DNA of 64,000 bases from Prolixibacteraceae bacterium (GCA_025355875.1 JANXYV010000212.1:5844-69843); one strand, 5' to 3'; positions 48,534 to 63,925 are shown, counted from the stretch's first letter. The notes: generated from the letters alone by a model not told the origin. A program made the numbers and translations.

Positions 48534-48606
48534 TGACCCATGGTGTAATTGGCAACACAACTGATTTTGGTTCAGTAGAGTCTAAGTTCGAGCCTTAGTG
48601 GGTCAA
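48534..48606 (+). tRNA. tRNA-Gln(TTG)
   Basis: Acceptor TGACCCA/TGGGTCA, D-arm TGGTGTAATTGGCAACAC, anticodon arm ACTGA-TTTTGGT-TCAGT, T-loop GTTCGAG. Confidence 0.95.
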
Positions 48607-48666
48607 CAAAAAAAAACGATCAATCTTTGCCCCGGCAAATAGATATTTGTTTTACAGCTTGAAAAT

Positions 48667-48739
48667 TGTCCTGTGGTGTAATTGGCAACACGTCTGATTC
48701 TGGATCAGAAGAGTTTAGGTTCGAAACCTAACAGGACAA
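48667..48739 (+). tRNA. tRNA-Gln(CTG)
   Basis: Acceptor TGTCCTG/CAGGACA, anticodon arm TCTGA-TTCTGGA-TCAGA, T-loop GTTCGAA. Confidence 0.95.
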
Positions 48740-48748
48740 CTGAAAATC

Positions 48749-48948: not shown

Positions 48949-50739
48949 TTACCGATAATTCAGGATTAACTCATTGAGACACTTTCTAACTTGCTCACGA
49001 CAGAGTTGTGCTGCCTCTTTGTTTAAAATATATGGATGAGCAGCTTTACGACGAAAATCTTCATTTATGGCTTCAATTTGTTTTAAATACTGCTGATCAA
49101 GTACTCTTTCTTCAAAGTATCCAAAAATGAAATCTCTAAAATCCATTAGAAGAGGACTTCGTTGTAAAGTTTTGCCATTTATTTCTAATAAAGTGAGTAT
49201 GAAAGACATTTGGCCAAGCGTATAATCAATATCACGTTTTTGAAGTTTCTTGGCAAATTGCCCGGTCTTACTGTCATTCAATTCATTTTTTATTATGGAA
49301 TCCATTTCAGACATTCTCTTAAGTACGTTTTCAGTATAAACGACAAATAACTTACTAAGAAGCTCATTTTCAAGTGCTCGACAATACTGAATAATAAAAG
49401 GTGAATAGTCTTCAGTTTGACTATTAACTATACCATCAAATATCATTTCTGCCTGAGGAAGGAAAATTTGACTTTCCTTTTCTAGACTTTCCCAATTTGT
49501 GAGCCAAGAACAAACAACTGTAATATATTCATTAAGTGATACTTTTGATATTGATGAACTAATCCATTGTTCCATCAAGTTGATTACTCCTTCAACTTGG
49601 TCGTCAGATGCATTATCAGGAATATCCATCAATTTCTTAAGATCGACTATATATTTTGTGAGCGTCTTCACTTCATTTTGTAATTTCGCTATTTCATGAA
49701 CGCTTGCTAAGATGTCTTGATAGTTACTGTAAATAACAGGTTGAGAAAGAACATCATTTTCACTAATAAAACTGTAATCTTTTCCAGAACTCAAATTACA
49801 AGTTGATTCTAATCGTTGTAATGCTATTTGCTGTGTCTCTTTTGAGCTTTCAACGCCCCACCAATTACGTCCTAACTGGTATGCTGAAACAAGAGTTGTA
49901 CCAGAACCCATAAAAGGATCAAGAACTTGATCTCCAGGATTAGATGCTAATTCAATAATTCTTTTTAAAAGTGCTATGGGCTTCTGACCTGAAATTATTG
50001 TGCGTTCGTCTGATTTAATGAGTGTAGGGATATCATCCCATGTAGTACCTAACTCAATTCCTGCATTATCGGATAAATATTGCTTCATACGTGGCAATCC
50101 ACCTTTTGTCGAAAAATATATTCTGTCCTCTTTTTCTAAAGCATCCATTTTGTCCTGAGAAAACCTCCAAGATCGCTTTGTAGGAGGCCTAAACCCACGC
50201 CATGCAAACTGAGCGTTGGGACGGTCAAAGGGAAATGTTAGATCCACCAGCAGAAATTGTCCATGAGGGTCAGAAAGATTATAACGTGATTTTTCATCTG
50301 GCGATAATGGCCTAAAAATAGGATTATAAATCGGCTGAGAGGATTTGTTATAAACAATAAGAATTTCGTTGTCAATCTTAGGTGATCCTTTGCTTGTGAT
50401 ATGTCTGGATTTCCTAACCAATGTTATCTCATATCGAGGTTGGTCTCCAAAAGCTTGATTAATAATCAAGCGAATATCAATTGTTGAAGTTAGAGACCAG
50501 TGGACAAATAAACTTCCCTGTTCGGTCAGAATTCGGTGTATTTGTTGAACATTCTTAGCTACCAATCCAATATATTCATTTTCGCCATCTTTACTATACT
50601 TAAAATTCGGAGAGTTATGCCAACTTTGGATATTCCATGGTGGATCAAAGTAAACCAGCGCAACGGACTGATCAGGTAACCTTTCAAGCAAGCTTAAGGA
50701 ATCACTGTGAAAAATAGCATTTGTTCCAGTTTTTATCAT
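48949..50739 (-). CDS. Beta-class DNA amino-methyltransferase fused to a C-terminal HEPN-like domain
   Basis: DPPW (aa 32-35), QKP..LL.RII, DPFMGSGT (aa 274 onward); coiled coil from about aa 347; ALENELLSK and RRKAAH (aa 563-568). Confidence 0.75.
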   Translation of the reverse strand: MIKTGTNAIFHSDSLSLLERLPDQSVALVYFDPPWNIQSWHNSPNFKYSKDGENEYIGLVAKNVQQIHRILTEQGSLFVHWSLTSTIDIRLIINQAFGDQPRYEITLVRKSRHITSKGSPKIDNEILIVYNKSSQPIYNPIFRPLSPDEKSRYNLSDPHGQFLLVDLTFPFDRPNAQFAWRGFRPPTKRSWRFSQDKMDALEKEDRIYFSTKGGLPRMKQYLSDNAGIELGTTWDDIPTLIKSDERTIISGQKPIALLKRIIELASNPGDQVLDPFMGSGTTLVSAYQLGRNWWGVESSKETQQIALQRLESTCNLSSGKDYSFISENDVLSQPVIYSNYQDILASVHEIAKLQNEVKTLTKYIVDLKKLMDIPDNASDDQVEGVINLMEQWISSSISKVSLNEYITVVCSWLTNWESLEKESQIFLPQAEMIFDGIVNSQTEDYSPFIIQYCRALENELLSKLFVVYTENVLKRMSEMDSIIKNELNDSKTGQFAKKLQKRDIDYTLGQMSFILTLLEINGKTLQRSPLLMDFRDFIFGYFEERVLDQQYLKQIEAINEDFRRKAAHPYILNKEAAQLCREQVRKCLNELILNYR

Positions 50740-50804: not shown

Positions 50805-53498
50805 TCAAACGAAATTTACAACGTTTGATGAAACTAATCCCCTAAAGCTGCTGTTCTTTGCAACTTTATCATGTGGAAGTAAAGCATATTTCCATTGCTT
50901 ACCGCCAAACTCCTTGATATATTCATTTGCATATTCACAATATTTAAGAGCTGCCTTTGTTTTTGCTTTTACTTCTTCACTGCTAATTTCGTTGGCAGCT
51001 TTAGTTTCTATCATATAAATATAATCAGCAGTTTCAGCAATAAAATCAGGTTGGTAGGTTTGGCCTTTGTGGTTCCAATAGATTCTGAATTGATATAATG
51101 ATGGTCTGAGCCATTTCAATACTTCAGAATCATTTTCTAAAATAAATGAAAAGGTTTGTTCTGTCCGGCTATCAAATTTATACTCCGGATGAGCTGTTTT
51201 TTTGAATCCTCTGAAAATATATTTCTGTATTTGAGACGGTTGCATTGTTTCATCAGTGTATTCTCTATAACCATTGCTAATCATAGTAAAATTCCAATCT
51301 TCAATTTTTACAAATGGGAATACTTTTGGCTTCTGGAAATCCGATTGCACTATTTCAAAATGCGCAGGACTTATCATCATTTGATTATATATTTTTTCGG
51401 CAATAAGCTTTTTCCACTGTCTAATCACTTGCCTTATATCTGCATTATCTTCTAATGTTTCTTCGATAGCGTTGATTGCCTGATTGCAAAGTTTAGCCTG
51501 TAAATCGGCTGTTTCGTAATCTATTTCCGCAAAATTGTTGAGTTCTACCATTAACATCTCCAATGGCTTTCTAATGTTATTTGATTTTGTTATTTCAAGT
51601 GTATCAACCTTTTTATCTGTAAGTCCATAAATCAGAATTTCTTCTTTTAATTTTTGATAATGAAAACTTGAAGTGTCTAAATCAAAATCATGAAATACCG
51701 GATAGGCTGTGCCTTGTTGCAGAACCATTCTGGGAATAGCTATTGTTTGTTGCTTAAATTCATTTACAATTTGGTTATAAATGATTTCAGCCTCTTCAAC
51801 AACTTTAGGATTTTCTATTACTGAAAAAATATCTTGTGGCCGGGAATATATTTCAAGTTTAATTGCCGCAATTACTTCTCTTTTTATTTCTTCTTTTTGA
51901 GCATCATCAATTTTGTTTACCTGAGTGTTTAATGCAAGTGTTGGAAGATAGTTTATAATTAATCTTTTAGCATCTAACTGATTCAGTTTTTGTTGCTTGT
52001 TTACATCATTTGATTTTTGAATGATTGCCTTTTCTTCATCCATCTTTTTATTGATTGTCGCTGTGACTTCAACGGGAACTTGTTTAGGTTCATTGGGATC
52101 AACAAAAACTTCAATTAGTTTTACTTTGTTTAAAACGGAGTTTGGATTTTTGGCTTCATTCAATATACTTTCGTAATTATCGTGTGCTACTATTGTTAGT
52201 CGATCCAATTTATCTATTCCGGTCCTTTCACCATTGAAAGGCAAACGAAGTCCTCTACCAATGGTTTGTTCTATTAATATTGCAGAGTTGGCTGCATTTA
52301 ATGGACAGATAGTATAAAGGTTATTTATATCCCAACCTTCTTTTAGCATAAAAACATGGATCACAATTTCAATAGGATTGTCTGTATCTTCTAAAGAAAT
52401 AAATAAACTCTCAACATCCTCATCGTTTTTACTGGTGCTGTCAATTTGCAATACTTTATCTATGTATGCTCCTTCTAAAAACTGCGGTGAATTGATAAAT
52501 TCATAAAGCCGTTTAGCATGATCGGTATTTTTTGCAGCAATAAGTGTAAGTGGTTTTACAAGCTTTTTATTTTCCTGCTTGTGGTACATATCCAATTCTA
52601 CCTTAATGTTTTCATGCAGGTTGATTGCATCTTCTATTTTAATTAGTTCAATTTCTTCTGGAGCTTTCCCTTTGTGATCAAAATCTTTCCGGGTAGCTAT
52701 TGCAGGAGCTTTAATATACAAACCTTCTTTTAAGGCAATGGCTAAAGAATACTCATAAACAACATTTTTAAACTTGTTGTTCTTTTCATCAATTGGAGTG
52801 GCAGTTAATTCTATACCTAAAATTGGTTTTAACTCGTTGATTGCCTCTTTACTTTTATCTGCATGATAACGGTGTGCTTCATCCATCAGGATTACCAAGT
52901 CTTTCAAATTGCTTAGATATTCCCAATAGCTTTGCCCTAAATACTCAGATAACCGTTTAATCCGAGGAGTCATATTTTTGCCACCTTCTTTTACTGGTTT
53001 AGTTTCTTTTGCAAATTTTGAAACGTTAAAAATATTAATCCTTATTTCGGTTTCACTAAATAACGAACTGACCTGATTGTAATTATCACCAGTAATGATT
53101 ACAGGCTTATTGTGCACAAACTCCGCTATACCACTAAAAACGTATTTTGAATAGCTGCTATTCCCAAAATCTTCAATCAATTTGTTGTAGATTGTAAGAT
53201 TGGGTGCCAATACAAAAAAATTTCTGAACCCTTTCTCCAAATACAAATAAGCAATACAAGCTCCCATTAATCGGGTTTTACCCACGCCAGTAGCAATACT
53301 GTAACAAATGGATACAAACTCTCTTTCGAAATCAGTGCAGGTTGGGTAAAGAGCCTGGACTTTTGCCAGTTCTGATTTAAGGTCTACATCTTTTTCTAAT
53401 TCTAACTCATCGGCTAGATGAACAAGTATATCTAATGAATCTTTTAATGGTTGTCGAAGTGATAGGCGCTGTTTTATATTTTCTGCGATCAGGTTCAT
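50805..53498 (-). CDS. res: Type III restriction enzyme Res subunit (SF2 helicase + PD-(D/E)XK nuclease)
   Basis: ATGVGKT, DEAH, TAT, LKEGWD, EQTIGRGLR, C-terminal YQPDF...IETK. Confidence 0.9.
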   Translation of the reverse strand: MNLIAENIKQRLSLRQPLKDSLDILVHLADELELEKDVDLKSELAKVQALYPTCTDFEREFVSICYSIATGVGKTRLMGACIAYLYLEKGFRNFFVLAPNLTIYNKLIEDFGNSSYSKYVFSGIAEFVHNKPVIITGDNYNQVSSLFSETEIRINIFNVSKFAKETKPVKEGGKNMTPRIKRLSEYLGQSYWEYLSNLKDLVILMDEAHRYHADKSKEAINELKPILGIELTATPIDEKNNKFKNVVYEYSLAIALKEGLYIKAPAIATRKDFDHKGKAPEEIELIKIEDAINLHENIKVELDMYHKQENKKLVKPLTLIAAKNTDHAKRLYEFINSPQFLEGAYIDKVLQIDSTSKNDEDVESLFISLEDTDNPIEIVIHVFMLKEGWDINNLYTICPLNAANSAILIEQTIGRGLRLPFNGERTGIDKLDRLTIVAHDNYESILNEAKNPNSVLNKVKLIEVFVDPNEPKQVPVEVTATINKKMDEEKAIIQKSNDVNKQQKLNQLDAKRLIINYLPTLALNTQVNKIDDAQKEEIKREVIAAIKLEIYSRPQDIFSVIENPKVVEEAEIIYNQIVNEFKQQTIAIPRMVLQQGTAYPVFHDFDLDTSSFHYQKLKEEILIYGLTDKKVDTLEITKSNNIRKPLEMLMVELNNFAEIDYETADLQAKLCNQAINAIEETLEDNADIRQVIRQWKKLIAEKIYNQMMISPAHFEIVQSDFQKPKVFPFVKIEDWNFTMISNGYREYTDETMQPSQIQKYIFRGFKKTAHPEYKFDSRTEQTFSFILENDSEVLKWLRPSLYQFRIYWNHKGQTYQPDFIAETADYIYMIETKAANEISSEEVKAKTKAALKYCEYANEYIKEFGGKQWKYALLPHDKVAKNSSFRGLVSSNVVNFV

Positions 53499-53517: not shown

Positions 53518-55188
53518 TTAGAAAAGTGTAGGTTGGTTATCGTCTTCTATTTTTTTTGAGGATTTGGATTTTGATAGCTTAATTGTGGGTTCCTCTATGG
53601 TTAATAAATCGTCTACCACTGCATTGTTTTCTGCTTCATCATGCGGAAAATTTACAATATTTAGGGAATAATCATCTTTCCCGAACTCACATCTTCCATA
53701 AAGCATTTGTGGGATTTTTTTGATTGTAATGTTTGATCTTCTCGATTTACATTCTGCCTTAAATCCCTTGCAGCATATCAATAAACTTTCGTTGGATAAC
53801 ATTTCTTCTGAAAGCCTGTCTAACATTTCAACCGTAATAAATTGGGTTGTGGTGAAAATGAAATCGTTCTCGCTGCTGTTACCTTGTTTCCAGTAAATAC
53901 TCTCATGAGGTAAATAATGGAATCCTTCCTGTTTAGCCATTGCTGCTGCCAACATATTGGCATTGTATTCCGGATTGATAATATCACATCCGTATTTATC
54001 TTTTTGAATTAATGATGGTGCAAGTGTGTAGAATTTAAAACCACCACCACCCTTCCATTCAACTGCCTTGCTAATACCGCCCTGCTCTCCATCAACAACT
54101 TGTTTCATACGTGGGAAACAATGGGTTCTGGCATGTTCTCCCAATTCGATACCTATATATTTTCTGCCCATTTTATGCGCTACGGCTGCGGAAGTACCAC
54201 TTCCTAGAAAACTATCAAGAACAATATCATTTTCCCCGGAACCAATCTTAAAGATTTTATGAATTAATCTTTCAGGTTTTGGTGTTTCAAAAACCTCATT
54301 ATTTAAAAAAGCATTAACTTCCCTTTTTGCTTCTTGATTATCACCAACCTCATCTCGAAGCCAAATTGACATAGGTACGATACCCTGTTGAATCTCTAAT
54401 AAAAATTGTTTAATTCTAGGTTTATTCTTTCCATCTTTCCCAAACCAAATTCGATTCTCAGATAGCCATTTACCATATGTACTTGAAGAAGGAGCCCACT
54501 GCCTCCCCGCAGGTGGATAATGAGTTATCCCACTTGGTGTTATTATAGGGTAGGAATGACCAGCTGCTTTAGTTTTTGATGTCATGTCTCCACTAGACCA
54601 ATCCCCGCGAGGATCATTATCTGGGTTTGAAAAGGTCGAATCTTCATCTTTCCGAGGCAATAGATATAACTTAAGTCTCAATTTATCTTTTGCAAATACT
54701 AAAACATAATCATGATTTGCACTTATGAAATTTTCATCATTTTGAGGAGAAAACTTTTTTTGCCAGATACATGTAGCTACAAAATTATTCCTGCCAAAAA
54801 TTTCATCGCACAAAACCCTTAAATATGAATATTCGTTATCATCTATACTAATCCATATACTTCCATCATCTCTTAATAAGTTCCGAAGCAAATTCAAGCG
54901 AGGTTTTATCAAATTTAACCATGTACTATGTTCGACTCCGTCATCATAATGATCAAATGCGCTTCCAGTATTGTATGGAGGGTCAATATATATGCACTTA
55001 ATTTTTCCAGCGTAATCCTGTTCTAGGGCTTTTAGAGCTAGTAGGTTGTCGCCGTGGATGAGCATGTTTTCAGTTCTTGGGTCACCGTAACTGTATTCTG
55101 GGTTCTCGATAAGGATTCTGGGTTCGAGTTTGGGTTCTTCGCCTTTGCCAATCCAAGTGAGTTCGAGTTTTTGTAAATGTTTTGCCAT
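53518..55188 (-). CDS. mod: Type III m6A methyltransferase Mod subunit
   Basis: KLELTWIGK, GDNLLAL, IYIDPPYNTG, TPKPERL, DSFLGSGT, GGGFKFY. Confidence 0.92.
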   Translation of the reverse strand: MAKHLQKLELTWIGKGEEPKLEPRILIENPEYSYGDPRTENMLIHGDNLLALKALEQDYAGKIKCIYIDPPYNTGSAFDHYDDGVEHSTWLNLIKPRLNLLRNLLRDDGSIWISIDDNEYSYLRVLCDEIFGRNNFVATCIWQKKFSPQNDENFISANHDYVLVFAKDKLRLKLYLLPRKDEDSTFSNPDNDPRGDWSSGDMTSKTKAAGHSYPIITPSGITHYPPAGRQWAPSSSTYGKWLSENRIWFGKDGKNKPRIKQFLLEIQQGIVPMSIWLRDEVGDNQEAKREVNAFLNNEVFETPKPERLIHKIFKIGSGENDIVLDSFLGSGTSAAVAHKMGRKYIGIELGEHARTHCFPRMKQVVDGEQGGISKAVEWKGGGGFKFYTLAPSLIQKDKYGCDIINPEYNANMLAAAMAKQEGFHYLPHESIYWKQGNSSENDFIFTTTQFITVEMLDRLSEEMLSNESLLICCKGFKAECKSRRSNITIKKIPQMLYGRCEFGKDDYSLNIVNFPHDEAENNAVVDDLLTIEEPTIKLSKSKSSKKIEDDNQPTLF

Positions 55189-55203: not shown

Positions 55204-56967
55204 CTAAATTTTCCATTTCCAAATCTGTAATGCTTGTTGGGCGAGGTCTTTACTTCTTAATTCAATTGCTGCAATGTTCCATGTTACTGTGCGCTTTTTA
55301 ACATCTCGGGCCAATGCACTTATGTCAGTGTAAGCAACTTGCTTTTCAATATAAGGTTTCTGCCCAAATGAACTATTTGCTGGTTGGCTATTCAGACAAA
55401 GATTACCTATAGTATTTGTAATAGTTGGTAAGCTATAATGTAAAGCATCAGCTACTAAATATGTTTTCCAATGATCATTAAGGGTTTGTGGTAAGATATG
55501 CTCAATAGTATATATGGTAGAATAATCAGGATACTCACCAAATGGTTGCATTGATTTATCCAACTCCTGTAAAACATGTCGTGAAAAATTTAATTCTCTT
55601 GAATTGTAAAGTTCTTTAGTCGTGAAAGCATCTTCAAAAATCTGATCAGCAACCCATAATTGCTCAGTTTGAATTTGCTTTTGAAATGCTCTTACCTTGT
55701 CCGGTTCATTAACAATCCTATCTAATAGTGATGGAAAGAAAGTGTCGTATTTTGTCACTGACAGACTAGTTATTTTTCTCCGAATTAGAAGTACATAAGT
55801 TTCATGCAGGATCTCAATAGCTTCTTGTTCTGTGATTGAACTATGCTCTAATGTTTTAAGCAATCCCATTAGAAATGGATAAATAGATGTCATGTTGGTT
55901 GCATTAATTGCAATCAACAATTTCTTTATATCTGGGTTAGCAGGTGGATATTGAATTGGCTTTAAAATTTGATTATATACATTGGTGTAATCAAATACCT
56001 TCTCTAATGTTTGAGTTGCAGTAACAGCAGATAGTTTCTTGTTTTTGATTTTAAAGTGAACGTACATTCTTCGTTCTTTTCCAACACGTTTTTTCTCACC
56101 CATTGAAAATAAATCTCGAAGATATTCTTCAAAGTTTGCTTCTCCTACTGCACTTCTAGCTGCAAGCCATTTTTCGTTATGTAATTTTTCGTGTTCATTG
56201 GTAATGTCATTTGTCAGAGGACGAAAGATATAATTGCATAAAAGCTCCGATGCTGATAGTGGCATACCTGCATCATTCAAACTTTCAAAAATTGCTTGCG
56301 CATCATCTTTTGTTTCATCCAATGGAATCCAAACAATTTTTAGCGATTTGAGTATAGCCTGACACCATTGCCAAAGTGTTGGAACATCCATATTTCGTAG
56401 ATATTTTTGAGCATACTTCACAAAAGCATCAATTTTATTTTCGAGAGGATTATAAAGTAGCTGATCTTCTCCGAGATGAGGACTATTAGGGTTTGAATTG
56501 AAAACCGTTTTGAATGTTGGCAACCTGTCACCTTTTGTGCTAAAGACTTTCAGTTTAAAATAATCATCACTTCCTGATACATTATTCTTCAGGTATTTAT
56601 CTAACTCAGAAATATATTTCTGAGCTTCAGGGGAAAGATGTGCCTTGCCTTCTAATAATTTTCTAAGCACGGCTAAAAGCAAATAAACTGTTGTAATTCT
56701 TTGCTGCCCATCGATCACTAAAAATTTTTTCAATGATGGATGTTGACTGATTTTCTCAAGGATCACGATAGGGCCAAAGAAATGTTCCTCATCTTCAAAA
56801 TTATTGTTTGAAACATTTTCAATTACTTCCGTCTGAATATCTTCAAAAAGTTTCTTCCATTGACGTTGCTCCCATGCATATCCTCTTTGAAAGAAAGGTA
56901 TTTCAAAACGGACACCAATGTTAAACATCTCCTCAAAATTTCGGTTGATTACATTTCCTGTTGGCAT
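55204..56967 (-). CDS. DUF262 + DUF1524 (GmrSD/SspE-like) nuclease
   Basis: IPFFQRGYAW, IDGQQR, IFESLNDAG, C-terminal HNH-like IEHILPQ...IGNL...N. Confidence 0.88.
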   Translation of the reverse strand: MPTGNVINRNFEEMFNIGVRFEIPFFQRGYAWEQRQWKKLFEDIQTEVIENVSNNNFEDEEHFFGPIVILEKISQHPSLKKFLVIDGQQRITTVYLLLAVLRKLLEGKAHLSPEAQKYISELDKYLKNNVSGSDDYFKLKVFSTKGDRLPTFKTVFNSNPNSPHLGEDQLLYNPLENKIDAFVKYAQKYLRNMDVPTLWQWCQAILKSLKIVWIPLDETKDDAQAIFESLNDAGMPLSASELLCNYIFRPLTNDITNEHEKLHNEKWLAARSAVGEANFEEYLRDLFSMGEKKRVGKERRMYVHFKIKNKKLSAVTATQTLEKVFDYTNVYNQILKPIQYPPANPDIKKLLIAINATNMTSIYPFLMGLLKTLEHSSITEQEAIEILHETYVLLIRRKITSLSVTKYDTFFPSLLDRIVNEPDKVRAFQKQIQTEQLWVADQIFEDAFTTKELYNSRELNFSRHVLQELDKSMQPFGEYPDYSTIYTIEHILPQTLNDHWKTYLVADALHYSLPTITNTIGNLCLNSQPANSSFGQKPYIEKQVAYTDISALARDVKKRTVTWNIAAIELRSKDLAQQALQIWKWKI

Positions 56968-56971
56968 ATTG

Positions 56972-59893
56972 TTAAATTATTTTAAATCTTATTGTGAATA
57001 ATTCGGTTTCGGTTGTATTTTGATTTAAGCGTTGTTCAATTTCATCCAAAAAGTTGTCCTTTCGTTTTTCAATATCGTCCTCATTCTGATATTGGTTATA
57101 ACGTTTATCAGCTAATTTTTTCTCAAGATCTTTAATGATGCGTTGCTCCTTTACTTTCTTTTCAAGGCTCAATAGTTTTCTTGCTTCTGTTTTCCGGGTT
57201 TTAATTTCCTTATCCAGTTCCTTTATTTCAAACTTTATACTGTTTCTTACATCTTCACTCCACTTTTCTAATTTGTCAACTTCCTCATTAAAAAAAGCAT
57301 GGTTTCGGTTGTGATTCTCTTCAATGATACCAATTTGCTGAGACAAATAATTCTCTTTAAATCGCTGCTTTAACTTTTCACTCAATTGTAAAGATTCAGA
57401 AGATATTTTTGCATCCAGAGAGAATAATCGTTGGCATTGCTCTGGCTGTAACGTATTCCCATCATCATCGAAAGCTGCAAATAATATATGGTCTTCCATT
57501 TCAAAACTTGATATGGAAATTTGCTTTGCCTGCAACCAACCTTGTTTACCTTTCAAGTTTTCAAGTATTGATATTTTCTTTTCGCTGTTTGTCAAATTAA
57601 AAATCAACTCCTGAATAGGTACCCCTTCTTTCTTACAAAATTCAATAACCTTTTGTGCTAATGGATGACCAACTCTATAGAGATTTTCATTTGATTGCAA
57701 TTCTTCAGCTACATGTCTTTCCCCAATGTTTTTCTTACCCAGCTTATATGGTCCATTATGAATAAGTTCTCCTTTAAATGGATTTTGATTGAGGTAAAAG
57801 CTGTTTTCGGAAGTGTTAAAGGTGGCAAAGGGTTGCAAAAAATATTTAGTAAGTTGCCATAACCAATTTTCAAACTTATTTAGATATTCGCTGCTTTGCT
57901 GTAAGTTTATTTTAAGTTTCTCATGCACTTCTTCATCAAAATTCTCTAAGAGCTTTTTCCTGGTAATGTCAATACCTATTTCAATTTCAGGTTCCATTTC
58001 CTTTTGAAGTGCATCAAATGCAAGCTGTATTGCTTCGATAGTTCTGCAAGTTTGATAGATTTGAACAATTCGTTTTTCAAAGTCTACACCACTCTCAATT
58101 GCGCCTAGTACTTCATCACTTGCCCCGAATACTCCACTGAAAAGTTGAAATTTTTCATCAAGCAATTGATATACTCTTTGATCAGCTGCATTGGTGTTAT
58201 TCAAGAAATTTACAACTACAACATCATACTTTTGTCCGTACCGATGACATCTACCAATGCGTTGTTCAATACGCTGCGGATTCCAAGGAAGGTCATAATT
58301 CACCACCAGAGAACAGAACTGTAAATTGATTCCTTCAGCTGCGGCTTCAGTTGCAATCATGATGGTAGCAGTATCACGGAAATAATCAACTAATGCAGCC
58401 CTTTTATCAGCCGTTTTAGAGCCTGTTATCCTATCTGTGCCTCTATGAGTATTAATCCATGCCTGATAGATCTGATTGCTCTTTGGGTCATTATTACTGC
58501 CATTAAATAGAACAATTTCATTCTTATAACCTCTAGCTTCCAAAGTATTTTTTAGATACTCCTGAGTTCTTATGCTTTCAGTAAAGATAATTGCTTTACG
58601 GTTTGCTTTTAACTCTGTTAGTTTTTGGAAAGCCTTATCTAAAGCGGTGAATAGTACTTCTCCCTTAGAATTAATGTGAATTGATTTGGCTAATTTTTTA
58701 AACTCATTGAGGGCCTCAATTTCTTGTTTGATTTCTAAAATTTCATCAGCAGAATAGATTCTATCTGCTTTGGCTATTTCCTCATCTTCTTCCTCTTCAT
58801 CAATCCATTCTTCTTGCTGCTCTTCAAAAGTTTCATAATTGTCATTAAATACCTCATTCACTGATTGCAATGAAGTTTCTTGTTTGATAAGTACGTTTCC
58901 CAACTTATCAGCCAATCCTTGTAATGTACCTGAAATAGCATAGGTAGATGATGCCAATAATTTGCGTAGAATTAAAGTCATGAGAGTTCGCTGACCAGGG
59001 GGCAAAGCATATAAGTTTGGCCTTTGTAAATACTCCGAAACTAAATCATAAAGGCGTTGTTCATCCTCACGTGGTGTAAACTCCTGCACAATGCAAGTTC
59101 TGTTGGTATAGTTAATATATTCCAACACCTGCCTTCTAAGTGTACGCTTACATACCGGCTCTAATCTTCTCTTTAGTTCATCAAAGTTTTTTTCTTCTGA
59201 AAGTCTTGTGTATTGCGTTTTAAAACTCTTTAAATCACCAAAGGCATATTCATCAATGATACTTACTAAACCATACAATTCTAATAATGAATTCTGCAAT
59301 GGTGTAGCTGTCAATAGAATCTTTGGAGAGTGGGCAACAGCATCTTTTATAGCTTTAGCAATTTTGTTTGTGGTCTTATATACATTTCGTAAGCGATGGG
59401 CTTCATCAACAACTACTAAATCCCAATCAACCTTACTTATATAAACTGCTTTACTTTTTATAAAATGGTATGAACAAATAACAATCTTTCCATCTTGTTG
59501 AAATGGATTGAAGTTTGCCTTTTGAACTTCTTCATTAAAAGATTTTGCTTCGAGAATTATTGAGGGTAAGAAGAATTTATCAGCAATTTCCTGATTCCAT
59601 TGTTTGCGTAAATTCGCAGGTGCAATGATTAAAATTCTACGTTTACGTTCTGCCCATTTCTGAGAAATAACAATACCAGCTTCAATAGTTTTTCCTAAAC
59701 CGACTTCATCAGCCAATACCGCTCCTTTTGATAGTGGTGACTGAAAAGCAAATAACGCTGCATCTATCTGGTGTGGATTTAGATCAACCTGTGCATCTGA
59801 TAGAGATGCAGTAAATTTCTCTAAACTATTTGACGAATACCTTTTGGTTAATTCATAAGCGAAATATTTTGCATGGTATGGTGTTATGCTCAC
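56972..59893 (-). CDS. SNF2/RapA-family ATPase associated with the type III RM locus
   Basis: PHQ, LADEVGLGKT, VDEAH, LLTATP, IFTES, AEGINLQ, NYDLPWNP.RIEQRIGR.HR; C-terminal coiled coil. GTG start. Confidence 0.9.
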   Translation of the reverse strand: MSITPYHAKYFAYELTKRYSSNSLEKFTASLSDAQVDLNPHQIDAALFAFQSPLSKGAVLADEVGLGKTIEAGIVISQKWAERKRRILIIAPANLRKQWNQEIADKFFLPSIILEAKSFNEEVQKANFNPFQQDGKIVICSYHFIKSKAVYISKVDWDLVVVDEAHRLRNVYKTTNKIAKAIKDAVAHSPKILLTATPLQNSLLELYGLVSIIDEYAFGDLKSFKTQYTRLSEEKNFDELKRRLEPVCKRTLRRQVLEYINYTNRTCIVQEFTPREDEQRLYDLVSEYLQRPNLYALPPGQRTLMTLILRKLLASSTYAISGTLQGLADKLGNVLIKQETSLQSVNEVFNDNYETFEEQQEEWIDEEEEDEEIAKADRIYSADEILEIKQEIEALNEFKKLAKSIHINSKGEVLFTALDKAFQKLTELKANRKAIIFTESIRTQEYLKNTLEARGYKNEIVLFNGSNNDPKSNQIYQAWINTHRGTDRITGSKTADKRAALVDYFRDTATIMIATEAAAEGINLQFCSLVVNYDLPWNPQRIEQRIGRCHRYGQKYDVVVVNFLNNTNAADQRVYQLLDEKFQLFSGVFGASDEVLGAIESGVDFEKRIVQIYQTCRTIEAIQLAFDALQKEMEPEIEIGIDITRKKLLENFDEEVHEKLKINLQQSSEYLNKFENWLWQLTKYFLQPFATFNTSENSFYLNQNPFKGELIHNGPYKLGKKNIGERHVAEELQSNENLYRVGHPLAQKVIEFCKKEGVPIQELIFNLTNSEKKISILENLKGKQGWLQAKQISISSFEMEDHILFAAFDDDGNTLQPEQCQRLFSLDAKISSESLQLSEKLKQRFKENYLSQQIGIIEENHNRNHAFFNEEVDKLEKWSEDVRNSIKFEIKELDKEIKTRKTEARKLLSLEKKVKEQRIIKDLEKKLADKRYNQYQNEDDIEKRKDNFLDEIEQRLNQNTTETELFTIRFKII

Positions 59894-60185: not shown

Positions 60186-61085
60186 TTATACTAATTTCCT
60201 AATGAGATTGACAAGTTCATCAATGTTCTCATGAACAGTTTCTATTGGCACGTTTCGACTTTTATTAAATCCTATTTTGTTTATAGGATATTTAAGTTTA
60301 AAACTTATAAAGCTTATCCATTCATCAACAATATTAATTGGCTTATGCTGCAAATAGAATCGATATTTTTCTTCAGATTGAAAATTTATCAAATGCCTTC
60401 CTCCACTAATATTTAACAAGCTAATATGTTTTTTGTCGCCTTCAGTTGAAAATACTTTTAATGAAAAGCCTTTATCTTTATTTGTATCATAGTAAATGTG
60501 TCCAGCATTAGCGCGATTTGTTTTTTCAACCATATCAACATCATTTAACTTTGAAAGTAGCTCTTTAATAAATGAATTTGAATTAATAAAATCTTTGCTA
60601 ACAGGCTTCCTTGATGTATCATTTATTGTATATATTGTTTCGTCGATCAGATTCGTCAAATATTTACACGAAAGCTTTATTTGATTATTTTGGATTGTAT
60701 TATAGATACTGTTAATGAAGGTTTTGATTTCCTCTAATGATAGGTCTGGCAAATGTTCTTTTTTCCCAAATATAGAATATACTTTTACACCATCCTTTTC
60801 ATATAATATTTTAAACCTATTAAATTGTTCGAGATTAATACCACACTCAACCTCGATATATCCTATTTTATCACCGAAGGAATTATAAACCACGAAATCT
60901 GGTCGAGAACCTTCTTCATTTTTCACTGGAAAAATTATAGAATCAGCATTTAATTTAAATTTCTCTAAAAACCAATTATGAAATACATCAAACATCTGCA
61001 GGTGAAATAAAGCCAGATTAATCCTATTCTCAGGTTTTGAAATGTCTTCTTTGACAAATATGTTAAAAATTACATCATCTTGCAT
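60186..61085 (-). CDS. Hypothetical protein, putative N-terminal PD-(D/E)XK nuclease
   Basis: RPDFVVY...GYIEVE...LEQFNRF pattern. Confidence 0.55.
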   Translation of the reverse strand: MQDDVIFNIFVKEDISKPENRINLALFHLQMFDVFHNWFLEKFKLNADSIIFPVKNEEGSRPDFVVYNSFGDKIGYIEVECGINLEQFNRFKILYEKDGVKVYSIFGKKEHLPDLSLEEIKTFINSIYNTIQNNQIKLSCKYLTNLIDETIYTINDTSRKPVSKDFINSNSFIKELLSKLNDVDMVEKTNRANAGHIYYDTNKDKGFSLKVFSTEGDKKHISLLNISGGRHLINFQSEEKYRFYLQHKPINIVDEWISFISFKLKYPINKIGFNKSRNVPIETVHENIDELVNLIRKLV

Positions 61086-61113
61086 TTTGATATATTTATA
61101 TGAAAAAATGCTA

Positions 61114-61791
61114 TTATTTTAAATCTTTAATATCAATCAATACATTTATTTTATTTCTACATTTTGAGTTTAATGCAAAAACTTTCTCAACTGTTCTAAT
61201 ATGCCCAATCCATTCATCCTTATTTGTTATTATATCTACATCTGGAGCATTACAGAAATAAATAAATATTATATATGCATTTAAATGATTTAATTCCTTT
61301 AAATAATATAAATGAGCTAGTCTATTTGCATATTGGTAGAATGGCATTTGCCAATAGGATTTTGTGTTATCTGAATAGAATTGTTTTGTATTATCAATAG
61401 ATTTTTTGATTAAATCAATTGATAGTTGCGAAGTTGCCCCAGTGTTGTAATCTACAGCTTCCTCAATATGAGCTTTAGCCTCAATCAAAAAATATTTTTT
61501 TGTATTTGTCTTTCCTAATCCATCCCATCTTGGTCCACTTATTGGCCAAAAATCATTCAATGATACAATGAGTTTATTTTTATCAATGCCTAATTTATCA
61601 AGAAATTCATTGTCATAGTATTCAGCAAAATCATCCGCCAAAGTTGGAGATAACCATTCGATAATCTCATTTTCACTAACAATTTTATTATCAAATAGAA
61701 TTTTGTTTAGTATCTCAGGGTTGTCATTAATAAGCTTCCGCAACCAAAATTCACTTCTAGTTGTAATTAGTGGTCTTTTTCTTCTTGGCAT
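61114..61791 (-). CDS. Hypothetical protein, putative PD-(D/E)XK nuclease
   Basis: FWPISGPRWDGLG...FLIEAKAH...YQYANRL. Confidence 0.55.
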   Translation of the reverse strand: MPRRKRPLITTRSEFWLRKLINDNPEILNKILFDNKIVSENEIIEWLSPTLADDFAEYYDNEFLDKLGIDKNKLIVSLNDFWPISGPRWDGLGKTNTKKYFLIEAKAHIEEAVDYNTGATSQLSIDLIKKSIDNTKQFYSDNTKSYWQMPFYQYANRLAHLYYLKELNHLNAYIIFIYFCNAPDVDIITNKDEWIGHIRTVEKVFALNSKCRNKINVLIDIKDLK

Positions 61792-61903
61792 AGTTTACTA
61801 TTTTTCAATGAGGTTATATAATAGCATAAAAGTAAGTATGCAACATGAAAATTACTTTCATATTATTTTATAAAATCAGAAAGTCCTATTTATTAACAGT
61901 TGC

Positions 61904-62713
61904 CTATTTTCTTAGAATTTCTCTAATTGATTCAATAGTATTCTCAATTTGCAAAGTATCATTATCGTCAATTTCTTCTATACCAATTAAATCACACATT
62001 GTTTTTCCTAGTGGACTAATTCCCAGAGAGGAAGCACTCATCGAAATTCCGCCTCCCGTTTGCTTTAGTAGCTGTTTATTATAAATATCCATTAACTCAA
62101 AATAGAAATCTTGATATTTACCTAAATCTGCTTTATCTTTAAATGAAATCATCCAGTTTTGGGTACTTAAATCTTCTATAGTTGAAAAGTATGCCAAAAT
62201 AGCTATTTGTCTATAGCTTAGCTGCTCTAAAATTCTTAACAAAGTATTTCCCTTTTCAAAATTTATGGAATTATCAAAACTTAGGTTTGCTAAGAGATTT
62301 GAATAACATCTTATTTTCTTTTCTTCATATTCGTTTCGTACTTTTAATAATGTTCCTTCTAAAATGGTCTCCGATTTAGACCTGTCATTTTCTTGTACTT
62401 CGAAAAAATCATCATTTCTTACTTTTTTCCCAGTGTCTATAATTTTAGCAATTTTTTCAAGGGCAAGAGTATAAGTTGCCCCAACTCTTGCCTGCTCTCT
62501 TGGACCCATAATCTTTTCAGATATCTCAGTACCAACTTTTTTGAAAGTAGCTCCAACAAGTGGACCAACAATTGCACCAGCAATTGCTCCAACGGGGCCA
62601 GCAATCGCAAGTCCAATAGTTGAACCAGCAACACTGCCTCCAATTTCTGAGCCTTTGTCAATTATTATTTTTAATTTTTTAAATTTCACACTACTTTTTT
62701 TCTTTTCTGTCAA
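61904..62713 (-). CDS. Hypothetical protein with N-terminal glycine zipper, Abi-alpha/DUF4393-like
   Basis: GGSVAGSTIGLAIAGPVGAIAGAIVG; EEKKIRCYSNLLAN..., ILEQLSYRQIAIL; C-terminal ISPLGK. Start uncertain (TTG 62713, GTG 62689, or 62806). Confidence 0.5.
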   Translation of the reverse strand: MTEKKKSSVKFKKLKIIIDKGSEIGGSVAGSTIGLAIAGPVGAIAGAIVGPLVGATFKKVGTEISEKIMGPREQARVGATYTLALEKIAKIIDTGKKVRNDDFFEVQENDRSKSETILEGTLLKVRNEYEEKKIRCYSNLLANLSFDNSINFEKGNTLLRILEQLSYRQIAILAYFSTIEDLSTQNWMISFKDKADLGKYQDFYFELMDIYNKQLLKQTGGGISMSASSLGISPLGKTMCDLIGIEEIDDNDTLQIENTIESIREILRK

Positions 62714-62863
62714 ATTATTGAATACTATTTTTTTATTATTGCCACGGTTGGAAGCTAAATGCAGAGGATGATTGCGGGTTTCGACAAGGTTGAATCGCAC
62801 CGCCACTCTAGTGTATTACGAACTTTGTTGTCCACATGAAAATGGCAATTAATAATATTGACA

Positions 62864-63925
62864 TTATTTATTTATCTTAAGTATTTTTTCAATATTATTT
62901 AAAAATCCATCAGTATTGTAGCCTACTAATATTCCTAAAACTAATCCACCAATGAAATCATCGATGGTCACAGGAATAAATTTCTTTTTACCAGGAATCT
63001 TACGTAGAATAAACGAAGATAAAAAAGCTAATAATACACAGCCAAAAATTTCCATCCCCCAATTTTCGGGAGCTACGTAATTTTTAAATACAATTTTCAA
63101 AAAATATCCTGCAATTGCGCCTGCAATAGCCCCCAAAGGTATTGAGTATAAAGATGGATTTACTTTTAACTCTTTCTCAATTTTAACATTCTCAAGGAAG
63201 TTACCTTTTGAGTCTAAAGCTTTTGAGTAAAAGATGTACTTATACGATGATTCTTTAAATTGACGAGGTATTTTTAATTCATAACTAAAAACGACTTCAC
63301 TTTTTGATGGAACTTTAATATACCTCAACCCAATTTGCTTTTCGACTTCAAGTTGCTTAATTTTTTCAAGTTCGTTAATGCAATTAATTAGTCTTGCTTT
63401 ATTTAGATTAAATGATTTAATAAGTATTGATTTCTTGTTATATTGAGTTAAATCAATAGTTTTTTCAATCTCTGCTAAATCCTCCAAATTTCTTATTTCT
63501 GCTAACCGTTCATAATTCTCCGGTAAACGCCTAAATGTTCTATAAATGTTATAATAGAATTCTTCCAAAAATTTTGAAGGGGTTAAACTTTGAATAACCT
63601 TTAATAATCGTGATATTCGTTTGCCTGATTCTTTAATTAATGGTTCTTCTTCCTCAAGTAACTCTTTTAAATAAATCTGTTTTATAGTTAATTCTAAATC
63701 AGATATTAAAGTTATCTTTCTATTTTCCAAGTTATCTAATTTAGAATCTTCTGCTGTCGTGTTAATATCTAAAATCCGACCATAGTATTCTTTTAATTCA
63801 AGAGGTTCCATGTATAACACATAAGAAGATAAATTTCTTAGACTTATTATAATTTTAAATCTTTTATCACCAACAATTTCTGTAGGGTTTATTAAAATTT
63901 CTTGTTGAAAATGCTTGCTGCTCAT
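62864..63925 (-). CDS. Hypothetical protein with coiled coil and three C-terminal TM helices
   Basis: Long ORF in AT-rich DNA; hydrophobic segments at the C-terminus; no recognisable family. Confidence 0.7.
   Translation of the reverse strand: MSSKHFQQEILINPTEIVGDKRFKIIISLRNLSSYVLYMEPLELKEYYGRILDINTTAEDSKLDNLENRKITLISDLELTIKQIYLKELLEEEEPLIKESGKRISRLLKVIQSLTPSKFLEEFYYNIYRTFRRLPENYERLAEIRNLEDLAEIEKTIDLTQYNKKSILIKSFNLNKARLINCINELEKIKQLEVEKQIGLRYIKVPSKSEVVFSYELKIPRQFKESSYKYIFYSKALDSKGNFLENVKIEKELKVNPSLYSIPLGAIAGAIAGYFLKIVFKNYVAPENWGMEIFGCVLLAFLSSFILRKIPGKKKFIPVTIDDFIGGLVLGILVGYNTDGFLNNIEKILKINK

What the first reader, a model, noticed from the sequence alone, without database searches (positions are those of the whole stretch)
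48949..50739. DNA methyltransferase fused to a HEPN-like RNase domain: candidate RM-coupled suicide effector
Seen: aa 1-~310 form a beta-class MTase with both motifs intact (DPPW; DPFMGSGT). A coiled coil starts at about aa 347, followed by a helical ~200-aa domain with QYCRALENELLSK and RRKAAH (R563-H568, nt 49036-49053) and one final helix. Established: an N-terminal ExxxK-type helix plus R-x4-H near the C-terminus is the HEPN signature, and the HEPN RNases PrrC and RloC act as back-up toxins tied to RM systems. Inference: the MTase module could sense DNA, SAM or anti-RM proteins and trigger RNA/tRNA cleavage. The operon already has its own Mod, so this second MTase is not needed for ordinary type III RM. 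I know of no characterised system with this exact fusion, but could not search.
Basis: partly seen in the sequence, partly recalled or inferred. Interest (0 to 1): 0.85.

Follow-up and report, generated by a model that had tools for sequence, protein, structure and literature searches.

The report
DNA methylase fused to HEPN RNase
The last gene of a restriction-modification defence island joins a DNA methyltransferase to a previously unannotated domain that is most likely a HEPN-type RNA-cutting "suicide" effector; the same domain is attached to many other methylases across bacteria, a pairing that the main census of HEPN domains said does not occur.

Summary
ORF 48949-50739(-) encodes 596 aa: a beta-class, type III Mod-like DNA methyltransferase (DPPW, DPFMGSGT), a long helical linker, and a ~200-aa all-helical C-domain.

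The C-domain matches no Pfam, NCBIfam or PDB sequence, and Foldseek found no fold match. It is nevertheless a large family, with 1,367 clusters at 50% identity. R563 and H568 are kept in 232 and 231 of 233 aligned copies, and E457 and E459 in 232 and 233.

Profile-profile comparison links it to four known HEPN families (Abi_2, RiboL-PSP, Swt1, DUF4145) at P 1.5e-4 to 5e-3, against 0.12-0.77 for controls. Both signature motifs align. I rate HEPN membership at about 0.8, with catalysis untested.

The domain is always C-terminal, behind beta- or gamma-class methylases, ROCO GTPases, helicases or a bare coiled coil. Beta-class fusions sit beside type III systems and gamma-class fusions beside type I, never crossed; most are solitary. 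Methylase catalytic motifs erode in many members, while the R/H motif almost never does.

Best reading: a methylase-like sensor, or decoy, tethered to an RNase back-up effector, analogous to PrrC. It is a new variant of a known kind. The trigger and the substrate are inferred.

The parts
48949..50739 (-). Whole gene, 596 aa: Mod-like methyltransferase, helical linker and HEPN-like C-domain
49822..50664 (-). Beta-class N6/N4 DNA methyltransferase domain (aa 26-306), collinear with the operon's type III Mod at 23% identity (E 8e-18)
50635..50646 (-). Catalytic motif IV, DPPW (aa 32-35)
49897..49920 (-). SAM-binding motif I, DPFMGSGT (aa 274-281)
49546..49722 (-). Long helical, coiled-coil-like linker (aa 340-398). 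It travels with the C-domain in ~315-aa proteins that have no other domain.
48952..49545 (-). All-helical C-domain (aa 399-596), an unannotated HEPN-like family
49351..49389 (-). Helix motif QYCRALENELLSK (aa 451-463). E457, N458 and E459 are near-invariant. The motif aligns with the 'fENsvR' helix of HEPN_Swt1.
49036..49053 (-). RRKAAH (R563-H568), the R-x4-H motif. The family consensus is RNK[AS]AHP.
50805..53498 (-). Type III restriction subunit Res, 65 nt upstream of the fusion gene
53518..55188 (-). Type III Mod methyltransferase
55204..56967 (-). GmrSD (DUF262/DUF1524) type IV-like nuclease in a variable slot
56972..59893 (-). SNF2 helicase, DrmD_b-like. It scores 705 bits, below the 950-bit cut-off.
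48534..48740 (+). Two tRNA-Gln genes (48534-48607 and 48667-48740) at the edge of the low-GC island

Best explanation
The gene encodes a two-module defence protein. The N-terminal module is a type III Mod-like DNA methyltransferase that serves mainly as a sensor or tether. It would bind DNA, SAM, RM partners, or phage anti-restriction factors that target such methylases. The C-terminal module, joined by a dimerising helical linker, is a HEPN-superfamily RNase of the Abi2/Swt1 clade and acts as the effector.

The protein sits in a variable accessory slot at the 3' end of an SNF2-Mod-Res island. I propose it acts as a back-up, abortive-infection arm. The RNase stays silent while the methylase module is in its resting state. 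It is switched on, probably by dimer rearrangement that forms a composite R-x4-H site, when restriction or methylation is subverted. RNA cleavage then stops translation.

Shown here: the domain architecture, the conservation, the family distribution, the genomic associations and the statistical link to HEPN families.

Inferred: RNase activity, the trigger, dimerisation and the outcome for the cell.
For: 1. The methyltransferase module is real and Mod-like.
2. The C-domain is a large family: 1,367 clusters at E<=1e-3, always C-terminal.
3. R563 is kept in 232/233, H568 in 231/233, E457 in 232/233 and E459 in 233/233 copies. N follows R in 159/233 copies, giving the canonical RNxxAH.
4. hhalign against Abi_2 gives P 1.8e-4 (probability 48%), RiboL-PSP 1.5e-4 (51%), Swt1 7e-4 (26%) and DUF4145 5e-3. 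Known HEPN families compared with each other give 1e-7 to 0.1. Reversed and unrelated controls give 0.12-0.77. ALENE aligns with fENsvR and RNKaAHP with RNxxaH.
5. Four of the ten weak PADLOC hits are to HEPN-bearing models (Csx1/Csm6 at 1.1e-4, CARF_HEPN_mCpol at 1.2e-4, Cas13a, CARF_m10-CARF_HEPN), and they map to the motif region.
6. The distribution is that of an effector. The same domain follows beta-class methylases, gamma-class methylases with a TRD, LRR-Roc-COR proteins, SF1 helicases, ResIII, HARE-HTH, or a coiled coil alone.
7. The fusion's methylase class matches the neighbouring RM type. Beta-class fusions sit beside type III Mod+Res (window, L025, L050/L081, L065). Gamma-class fusions sit beside type I hsdMSR (L059-L062, L069, L078). 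The two are never crossed.
8. Methylase catalysis looks dispensable. About 11/57 beta-class members have a degenerate motif IV and about 8/57 a degenerate motif I. The gamma-class members examined carry x[LI]PFG without the N/D. The R/H motif is kept in all but one or two.
9. The TRD region is as conserved as the catalytic core (0.63 against 0.60-0.65), unlike the Mod of a relative, whose TRD has diverged.
Against: Foldseek with two confident models against the PDB and BFVD found no HEPN, and nothing else below E 0.1.

No single HMM or profile hit reaches conventional significance; the best hhalign probability is 51%.

Abi_2, the closest family, has itself never been shown biochemically to be an RNase.

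Most family members have no RM system within 10 kb, so a strict partnership with the neighbouring RM system is not required.

In this window the methylase motifs are intact, so the protein may simply methylate DNA as well.

No anti-restriction trigger is shown.
Confidence: 0.45

Rival explanations
1. Autonomous, methylation-gated RNase: a single-chain RM-like system whose 'restriction' arm cuts RNA. The methylase marks its own sites in host DNA. When the methylase engages many unmethylated sites on incoming DNA, the HEPN domains are brought together and activated.
For: Most family members are solitary genes with no RM partner. In this window and in 46/57 beta-class members the catalytic motifs are intact. 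The gamma-class fusions carry their own TRD.
Against: Catalytic motifs are degenerate in about a fifth of beta-class members and in the gamma-class members examined. Those proteins could not protect self DNA, yet they keep the R/H motif. The TRD shows no diversification of specificity.
Confidence: 0.22
2. Alternative Mod-like subunit of the type III enzyme. The protein replaces or pairs with Mod in the Mod2Res complex and so brings an RNase (or simply a dimerisation domain) to Res. It would then be a structural part of this SNF2-Mod-Res system.
For: It is collinear with Mod over aa 7-319. The gene lies 65 nt after Res on the same strand. The order Mod-Res-fusion recurs in L025 and in L081 from other phyla.
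Against: Orthologous SNF2-Mod-Res or Mod-Res loci in six relatives lack the gene (other ORFs fill the slot in the one relative examined, G450). In L065 the gene is convergent with Mod-Res. Many members are solitary. The same C-domain follows non-methylase partners.
Confidence: 0.13
3. The C-domain is not a nuclease. It would be a helical regulatory, oligomerisation or ligand-binding domain, possibly a catalytically silent HEPN-like fold, and the protein would be an ordinary orphan or second methyltransferase.
For: No fold match. No significant family hit. Some recognised HEPN families are non-catalytic (PMC3710099, Table 1).
Against: A near-invariant polar constellation (E457, N458, E459, K463, R563, H568) is typical of an active site. 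The methylase motifs erode while this motif does not. The domain also occurs behind GTPase and helicase sensors and in defence islands.
Confidence: 0.12
4. The C-domain is a new DNase, which would make the protein a type IIG/IIL-like single-chain restriction-modification enzyme.
For: The architecture of methylase (with or without a TRD) plus an effector in one chain mirrors type IIG enzymes. Family members are solitary.
Against: The motifs and profile matches point to HEPN, whose characterised members are metal-independent RNases (established knowledge; PMC3710099). Members with dead methylase motifs would be self-destructive as DNases.
Confidence: 0.06

Closest known systems
Abi_2 (AbiD/AbiF), HEPN_Swt1 and HEPN_RiboL-PSP families of the HEPN superfamily
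   Same: All-helical. Helix-1 E-N-x-x-(R/K) motif and R-N-x-x-A-H motif, followed by a last helix. These give the best profile-profile matches (P 1.5e-4 to 7e-4). Abi2-clade HEPNs are known to be embedded in R-M operons (PMC3710099).
   Different: No member reaches any Pfam cut-off. There is a ~70-residue helical insert between the two motif helices, and additional invariant residues (D444-S-P-F, G509, S528). The domain is preceded by a coiled coil and fused to methyltransferases.
PrrC / EcoprrI and RloC (HEPN anticodon nucleases linked to R-M)
   Same: A HEPN effector genetically tied to a restriction-modification system and thought to fire when restriction is subverted. The logic is the same: first restrict DNA, then cut RNA.
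   Different: PrrC and RloC carry an ABC-ATPase regulatory domain and bind the R-M complex non-covalently. Here the regulatory module is itself a methyltransferase paralogue fused in cis, and there is no ATPase.
HEPN fusions to R-M components catalogued by Anantharaman et al. 2013 (PMC3710099), and HEPN-DUF499 of Hma/BREX-related systems (PMC12839542)
   Same: HEPN as a back-up effector fused to a subunit of a modification-based defence system.
   Different: That census states that such fusions involve nucleases, helicases and ATPases 'but not the methylases'. This family is fused to methylases of two classes.
Type III Mod subunits (e.g. EcoP15I Mod, PDB 4zcf)
   Same: Beta-class motif order. 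The central region carries the W...RI.F...G..PR.KQ[YF]L signature shared with the operon's Mod.
   Different: It lacks Mod's C-terminal ~190 aa. Its TRD does not diversify across the family. It carries the coiled coil and HEPN-like domain instead.

Membership tests
HEPN superfamily | Conserved R-x4-6-H motif, often with a polar residue (N) after R | tested here: met
   R in 232/233, H in 231/233 and N after R in 159/233 aligned copies
HEPN superfamily | All-alpha fold with a four-helix core resembling solved HEPN structures | tested here: inconclusive
   The AF2 models are all-helical with pLDDT 88-91. Foldseek against the PDB (twice) and BFVD gave no hit below E 0.1 and no HEPN in the top 50.
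HEPN superfamily | Detectable sequence or profile relationship to recognised HEPN families | tested here: inconclusive
   hhalign P 1.5e-4 to 5e-3 against four families (probability 7-51%), with controls at 0.12-0.77. Weak HMM hits to Csx1/Csm6, mCpol-HEPN and Cas13a. Nothing passes a curated cut-off.
HEPN superfamily | Metal-independent endoRNase activity | not testable with these tools
   Needs biochemistry
Abi2/Swt1 clade of HEPN | Helix-1 E-N-x-x-R-type motif together with R-N-x-x-A-H | tested here: met
   ALENELLxK aligns with the Swt1 'fENsvR' helix, and RNKaAHP aligns with RNxxaH
Beta-class N6/N4 DNA methyltransferase (PF01555) | Pfam hit above the cut-off; motif IV (D/N/S)PP(Y/F/W) N-terminal to motif I FxGxG | tested here: met
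   112.5 bits against a 26.7-bit cut-off. DPPW at aa 32 and DPFMGSG at aa 274.
Type III Mod subunit | Full-length similarity to Mod, including the C-terminal region, and a variable TRD | tested here: not met
   It aligns only with aa 41-370 of the 556-aa Mod. The TRD is conserved across the family. The best PADLOC model is MTase_II.
PrrC/RloC anticodon nucleases | N-terminal ABC-type ATPase fused to the C-terminal HEPN | tested here: not met
   No ATPase domain is present; the N-terminus is a methyltransferase
DISARM | DrmA, DrmB and DrmC together with DrmD or DrmE and a methylase | tested here: not met
   Only the SNF2 helicase resembles DrmD, at 705 bits below the 950-bit cut-off. No DrmA/B/C is among the operon genes.

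The most novel reading that the evidence does not exclude
The C-domain defines a widespread, unnamed HEPN effector family. Its methylase-fused members would be covalent 'guards' of restriction-modification systems. In this reading a Mod-like or HsdM/S-like module, often catalytically dead, acts as bait for phage anti-restriction factors (DNA mimics, SAM depletion, Stp-like peptides). Capture of such a factor switches on RNA cleavage. This would be a single-polypeptide, type-matched equivalent of PrrC for both type I and type III systems.
Probability: 0.3. Interest if true: 0.8.

Novelty: new variant of a known kind. Interest (0 to 1): 0.66.

Why it matters
Coupling of HEPN RNases to restriction systems is an accepted idea, but PrrC remains almost the only worked example. 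The reference census of HEPN domains explicitly found no fusions to methylases.

This family has more than 1,300 sequence clusters in at least eight phyla, and the Pfam, NCBIfam and PADLOC libraries searched here do not model it. It would show that the modification arm, or a decoy of it, can be wired directly to an abortive-infection effector.

It also gives a compact, single-gene system in which two questions become testable. One is how RM systems are guarded against phage anti-restriction. The other is whether 'dead' methylases act as immune sensors.

A Pfam-style model of the domain would also improve annotation of many genes now labelled 'DNA methylase' or 'hypothetical'.

Tried and rejected
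- Direct family assignment failed. Pfam on the whole protein and on the C-domain alone, Pfam on 35 members, and profile searches of PDB sequences gave only coiled-coil noise.
- Foldseek on two models against the PDB and BFVD gave nothing, so the fold could be neither confirmed nor reassigned.
- NCBIfam gave weak hits of 9/35 members to HP0729_fam (best 2.6e-6). That family was not found in 21 relatives or 14 control genomes, the ~315-aa stand-alone members do not belong to it, and the only paper that mentions it was not read. The lead was left open.
- Cas_Csm6_HEPN could not be sampled in 301 genomes of the phylum, so no Csm6 alignment was made.
- A homologue search to deepen the Abi_2 alignment returned only close relatives and did not improve power.
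- Removing the insert from the C-domain alignment to force a compact HEPN core gave only P 0.006 against DUF4145.
- I rejected the idea that the fusion is a fixed fifth subunit of the operon.
- I rejected classification of the locus as DISARM, because DrmA, DrmB and DrmC are absent.
- Literature searches for MTase-HEPN fusions found nothing.

Full report
**1. Observation**

The ORF at 48949-50739 on the - strand is intact and encodes 596 aa. Pfam N6_N4_Mtase covers aa 26-306 (E 3.8e-32, 112.5 bits against a 26.7-bit cut-off). PADLOC and PDB sequence searches agree: MTase_II and MTase_III models, and MboIIA, CcrM, DpnA, RsrI and a Mod.

DPPW is at aa 32-35 and DPFMGSGT at aa 274-281, so motif IV precedes motif I, which is the beta-class order. 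The domain is collinear with the operon's own type III Mod over aa 7-319 (23% identity, E 8e-18). This includes the central W...RI.F...G..PR.KQ[YF]L block. It lacks Mod's last ~190 residues.

AlphaFold2 with a 77-sequence alignment predicts helices at aa 340-371 and 379-397, then a compact all-helical domain (pLDDT 87.6). A second model of aa 387-596 reaches pLDDT 90.9 and pTM 0.84.

**2. The C-domain is a large, unannotated family**

No Pfam, NCBIfam, PADLOC or PDB sequence match covers aa 330-596.

A word-seeded search with this region found 110 proteins. An exhaustive profile search of 1.84 billion cluster representatives found 1,367 at E<=1e-3, of which 186 are at E<=1e-30. In all 150 listed hits the domain is at the C-terminus.

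The N-terminal partners differ:
- beta-class PF01555 methylases, like this one;
- gamma-class N6_Mtase, with or without Methylase_S or Eco57I;
- LRR-Roc-COR GTPases;
- an SF1 helicase;
- a ResIII helicase;
- a HARE-HTH protein;
- many ~315-aa proteins that are only a coiled coil plus the domain.

A scan of one genome per species found it in Bacteroidota, Cyanobacteria, Planctomycetota, a deltaproteobacterial MAG, Verrucomicrobiota, Ignavibacteriota, Armatimonadota, Chloroflexota and Spirochaetota.

In 233 aligned copies the conservation is as follows:

| Residue | Copies keeping it |
|---|---|
| R563 | 232/233 |
| H568 | 231/233 |
| E457 | 232/233 |
| E459 | 233/233 |
| G509 | 232/233 |
| D444 | 229/233 |
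| K463 | 224/233 |
| N458 | 219/233 |
| N directly after R563 | 159/233 |

The family motifs are DYSPFIIQYCRALENELLxKLF and [FY]RNK[AS]AHP.

**3. Is it HEPN?**

Fold search did not help. Foldseek with both models against the PDB and with the shorter one against BFVD gave no match below E 0.1 and no HEPN entry in the top 50. This neither supports nor replaces the assignment.

Sequence evidence does point to HEPN, in two ways.

First, when 35 members were scanned singly against PADLOC, four of the ten families hit weakly carry HEPN:
- Csx1/Csm6: six members, best E 1.1e-4;
- CARF_HEPN_mCpol: 1.2e-4;
- Cas13a: 0.0058;
- CARF_m10-CARF_HEPN: 0.013.

The matched stretches cover the motif region of the query and the C-terminal part of those profiles, where I take the HEPN domain to lie. 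One member also touches Pfam Cas_Csm6_HEPN at E 0.032.

Second, I rebuilt alignments of four Pfam HEPN families from genome hits and ran hhalign. The 233-sequence C-domain alignment gives:

| HEPN family | P | Probability | Aligned columns |
|---|---|---|---|
| Abi_2 | 1.8e-4 | 48% | 154 |
| HEPN_RiboL-PSP | 1.5e-4 | 51% | 132 |
| HEPN_Swt1 | 7.1e-4 | 26% | 142 |
| DUF4145 | 5e-3 | 7% | 110 |

With the same shallow alignments, the known families score against each other from 1e-7 (Abi_2 against Swt1) to 0.1; the other five pairs lie at 0.005-0.1. Reversed-sequence controls give 0.12-0.6. The unrelated methylase N-domain gives 0.43-0.77.

The alignments are collinear and place RNKaAHP on RNxxaH in each of the four comparisons. 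With Swt1, ALENE falls on the helix-1 'fENsvR' motif. With Abi_2, YTLGxM falls on 'lsxGxLs'.

I conclude, at about 0.8, that this is a HEPN-superfamily domain of the Abi2/Swt1 clade with a ~70-residue helical insert. The catalytic motif is intact in the window's protein, although N is replaced by R after R563, as in 15 other members.

**4. Genomic setting**

The five - strand genes are:
- SNF2: DrmD_b-like, 705 bits against a 950-bit cut-off;
- GmrSD: PADLOC Orf5/HEC-06;
- type III Mod;
- type III Res;
- the fusion gene.

They form a low-GC block (0.32-0.37 against 0.41-0.48 in the flank) that abuts two tRNA-Gln genes at 48534-48740.

A metagenomic contig (L024) shares window 52468-48453 at 95% identity, while its flanking genes are only about 70% identical. 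There an IS21 element truncates Res. The island is therefore mobile.

The same system, SNF2-Mod-Res-fusion, occurs in a deltaproteobacterial MAG (L081), interrupted by two insertion elements, with SNF2 at E 2e-179 to the window's. UvrD-PD-ExK-Mod-Res-fusion occurs in L025. In an Armatimonas genome the fusion gene is convergent with Mod-Res.

The fusion is not a core subunit, however. Among 40 relatives, six carry orthologous Res genes (42-66% identity) without it. Two of these also have the SNF2. In G450 the slots filled here by GmrSD and by the fusion hold unrelated ORFs.

Other beta-class members are solitary or lie in defence islands, for example directly after a CBASS operon.

Among 24 gamma-class loci, five or six lie in type I hsdM-hsdS-hsdR operons and none beside a type III system. 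The four beta-class cases with an RM neighbour are all type III. By a Fisher exact test on 4/0 against 0/6, my own calculation, this separation has P of about 0.005.

**5. What the methylase module is for**

In this window both catalytic motifs are intact.

Across 57 full-length beta-class members, about 46 keep (D/N)PP(W/Y/F). About 11 have variants such as DPPH, DPQW, DAPA or QPQL. About eight have a broken FxGxG.

None of the 34 longest gamma-class members has a canonical (N/D)PP(Y/F/W). Those inspected carry x-[L/I/P]-P-F-G without a conserved N/D.

The R/H motif of the C-domain survives in all but one or two. The region that should be the TRD is as conserved (0.63) as the catalytic core (0.60-0.65). 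By contrast, the neighbouring Mod and its G450 orthologue share 72% identity at the ends and have a diverged middle.

Methyl transfer and diversification of specificity therefore do not seem to be what selection maintains. Binding does.

**6. Mechanism**

I commit to a sensor-effector model. A Mod-like (elsewhere HsdM/S-like) module is coupled through a dimerising coiled coil to a HEPN RNase. The protein acts as an accessory back-up to restriction, by analogy with PrrC-EcoprrI (PMC3710099).

Three observations favour a guard or decoy trigger, that is, interference with the methylase or RM machinery:
- the methylase class matches the neighbouring RM type;
- the catalytic motifs erode;
- the TRD is conserved.

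They count against sensing of unmethylated DNA, which would need self-methylation. The many solitary members keep that rival alive.

None of the activity, the trigger or dimerisation is shown.

**7. Novelty**

The 2013 HEPN census states that R-M-associated HEPN domains fuse to nucleases, helicases and ATPases 'but not to the methylases' (PMC3710099). The 2026 BREX survey lists HEPN fusions to DUF499 only. Full-text searches for MTase-HEPN fusions found nothing.

An earlier AI note from this scan (e1-2480314) describes the gamma-class relatives in similar terms. It is a lead, not independent evidence. I confirmed its points about degenerate motifs and type I contexts only in part.

I class the finding as a new variant of a known kind: HEPN back-up effectors of RM systems.

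Noticed in passing
window 48534-48607 and 48667-48740 (+); GC profile 40000-64000: Two tRNA-Gln genes (anticodons TTG and CTG) lie 209 nt beyond the fusion gene's stop. From there to the end of the window, GC falls from about 0.42-0.47 to 0.27-0.37. The defence genes therefore form a horizontally acquired island at a tRNA site.
   Followed up: partly
L024 8272-12234 against window 52468-48453: A metagenomic contig carries the 3' part of Res, the fusion gene and the tRNAs at 95% identity, while its flanking core genes are about 70% identical. An IS21 element (Mu-transpos_C_2 plus IstB) truncates Res there, yet the fusion gene stays intact.
   Followed up: partly
window 55204-56967; G450:C69 (L088 11416-12522 and 5321-6591): A same-genus genome has orthologous SNF2, Mod and Res. 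It has an unrelated 369-aa ORF in place of GmrSD, and 255-aa and 167-aa ORFs in place of the fusion gene. These are two variable accessory slots in one system. The Mod TRD has also diverged between the two genomes.
   Followed up: partly
P0070-P0111; loci L052-L075: Gamma-class (HsdM/HsdS-like) relatives of the fusion have motif IV as x[L/I/P]PFG with no conserved N/D, so they are probably catalytically dead methylases. Five or six of 24 lie inside type I hsdMSR operons.
   Followed up: partly
L078 8001-14243: In an Ignavibacteriota chromosome a 2080-aa protein joins N6_Mtase, a TRD, the C-domain and an SF1 helicase. It lies between hsdM-hsdS-KwaA-KwaB (Kiwa) and hsdR, next to DarT/Macro.
   Followed up: no
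L003 9761-13198: In Phormidium tenue the fusion gene lies between a 67-aa ORF and a 444-aa ORF that both hit SMC_N/AAA_15/AAA_23. It looks as if the gene had inserted into an OLD/Gabija-like ATPase gene.
   Followed up: no
P0202, P0214 (L077 6266-10639): LRR-Roc-COR (ROCO) GTPases of 1,095-1,458 aa end in the same C-domain. These are a bacterial ROCO sensor with a putative RNase effector.
   Followed up: no
A2 members against NCBIfam NF041917: Nine of 35 C-domains weakly hit the 'HP0729 family protein' model (best E 2.6e-6). That family could not be sampled in relatives or control genomes, so its relation to the domain is unknown.
   Followed up: partly
window 60186-63925 (-): Four consecutive ORFs (299, 225, 300 and 353 aa) in the lowest-GC part of the island (0.27-0.33) have no Pfam match at E<=0.001.
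   Followed up: partly
G000 contig C9 2417-2974 (L033): The same genome carries a canonical Abi_2 (AbiD/F-like HEPN) gene elsewhere (E 1.6e-53). I used it as one reference sequence.
   Followed up: no
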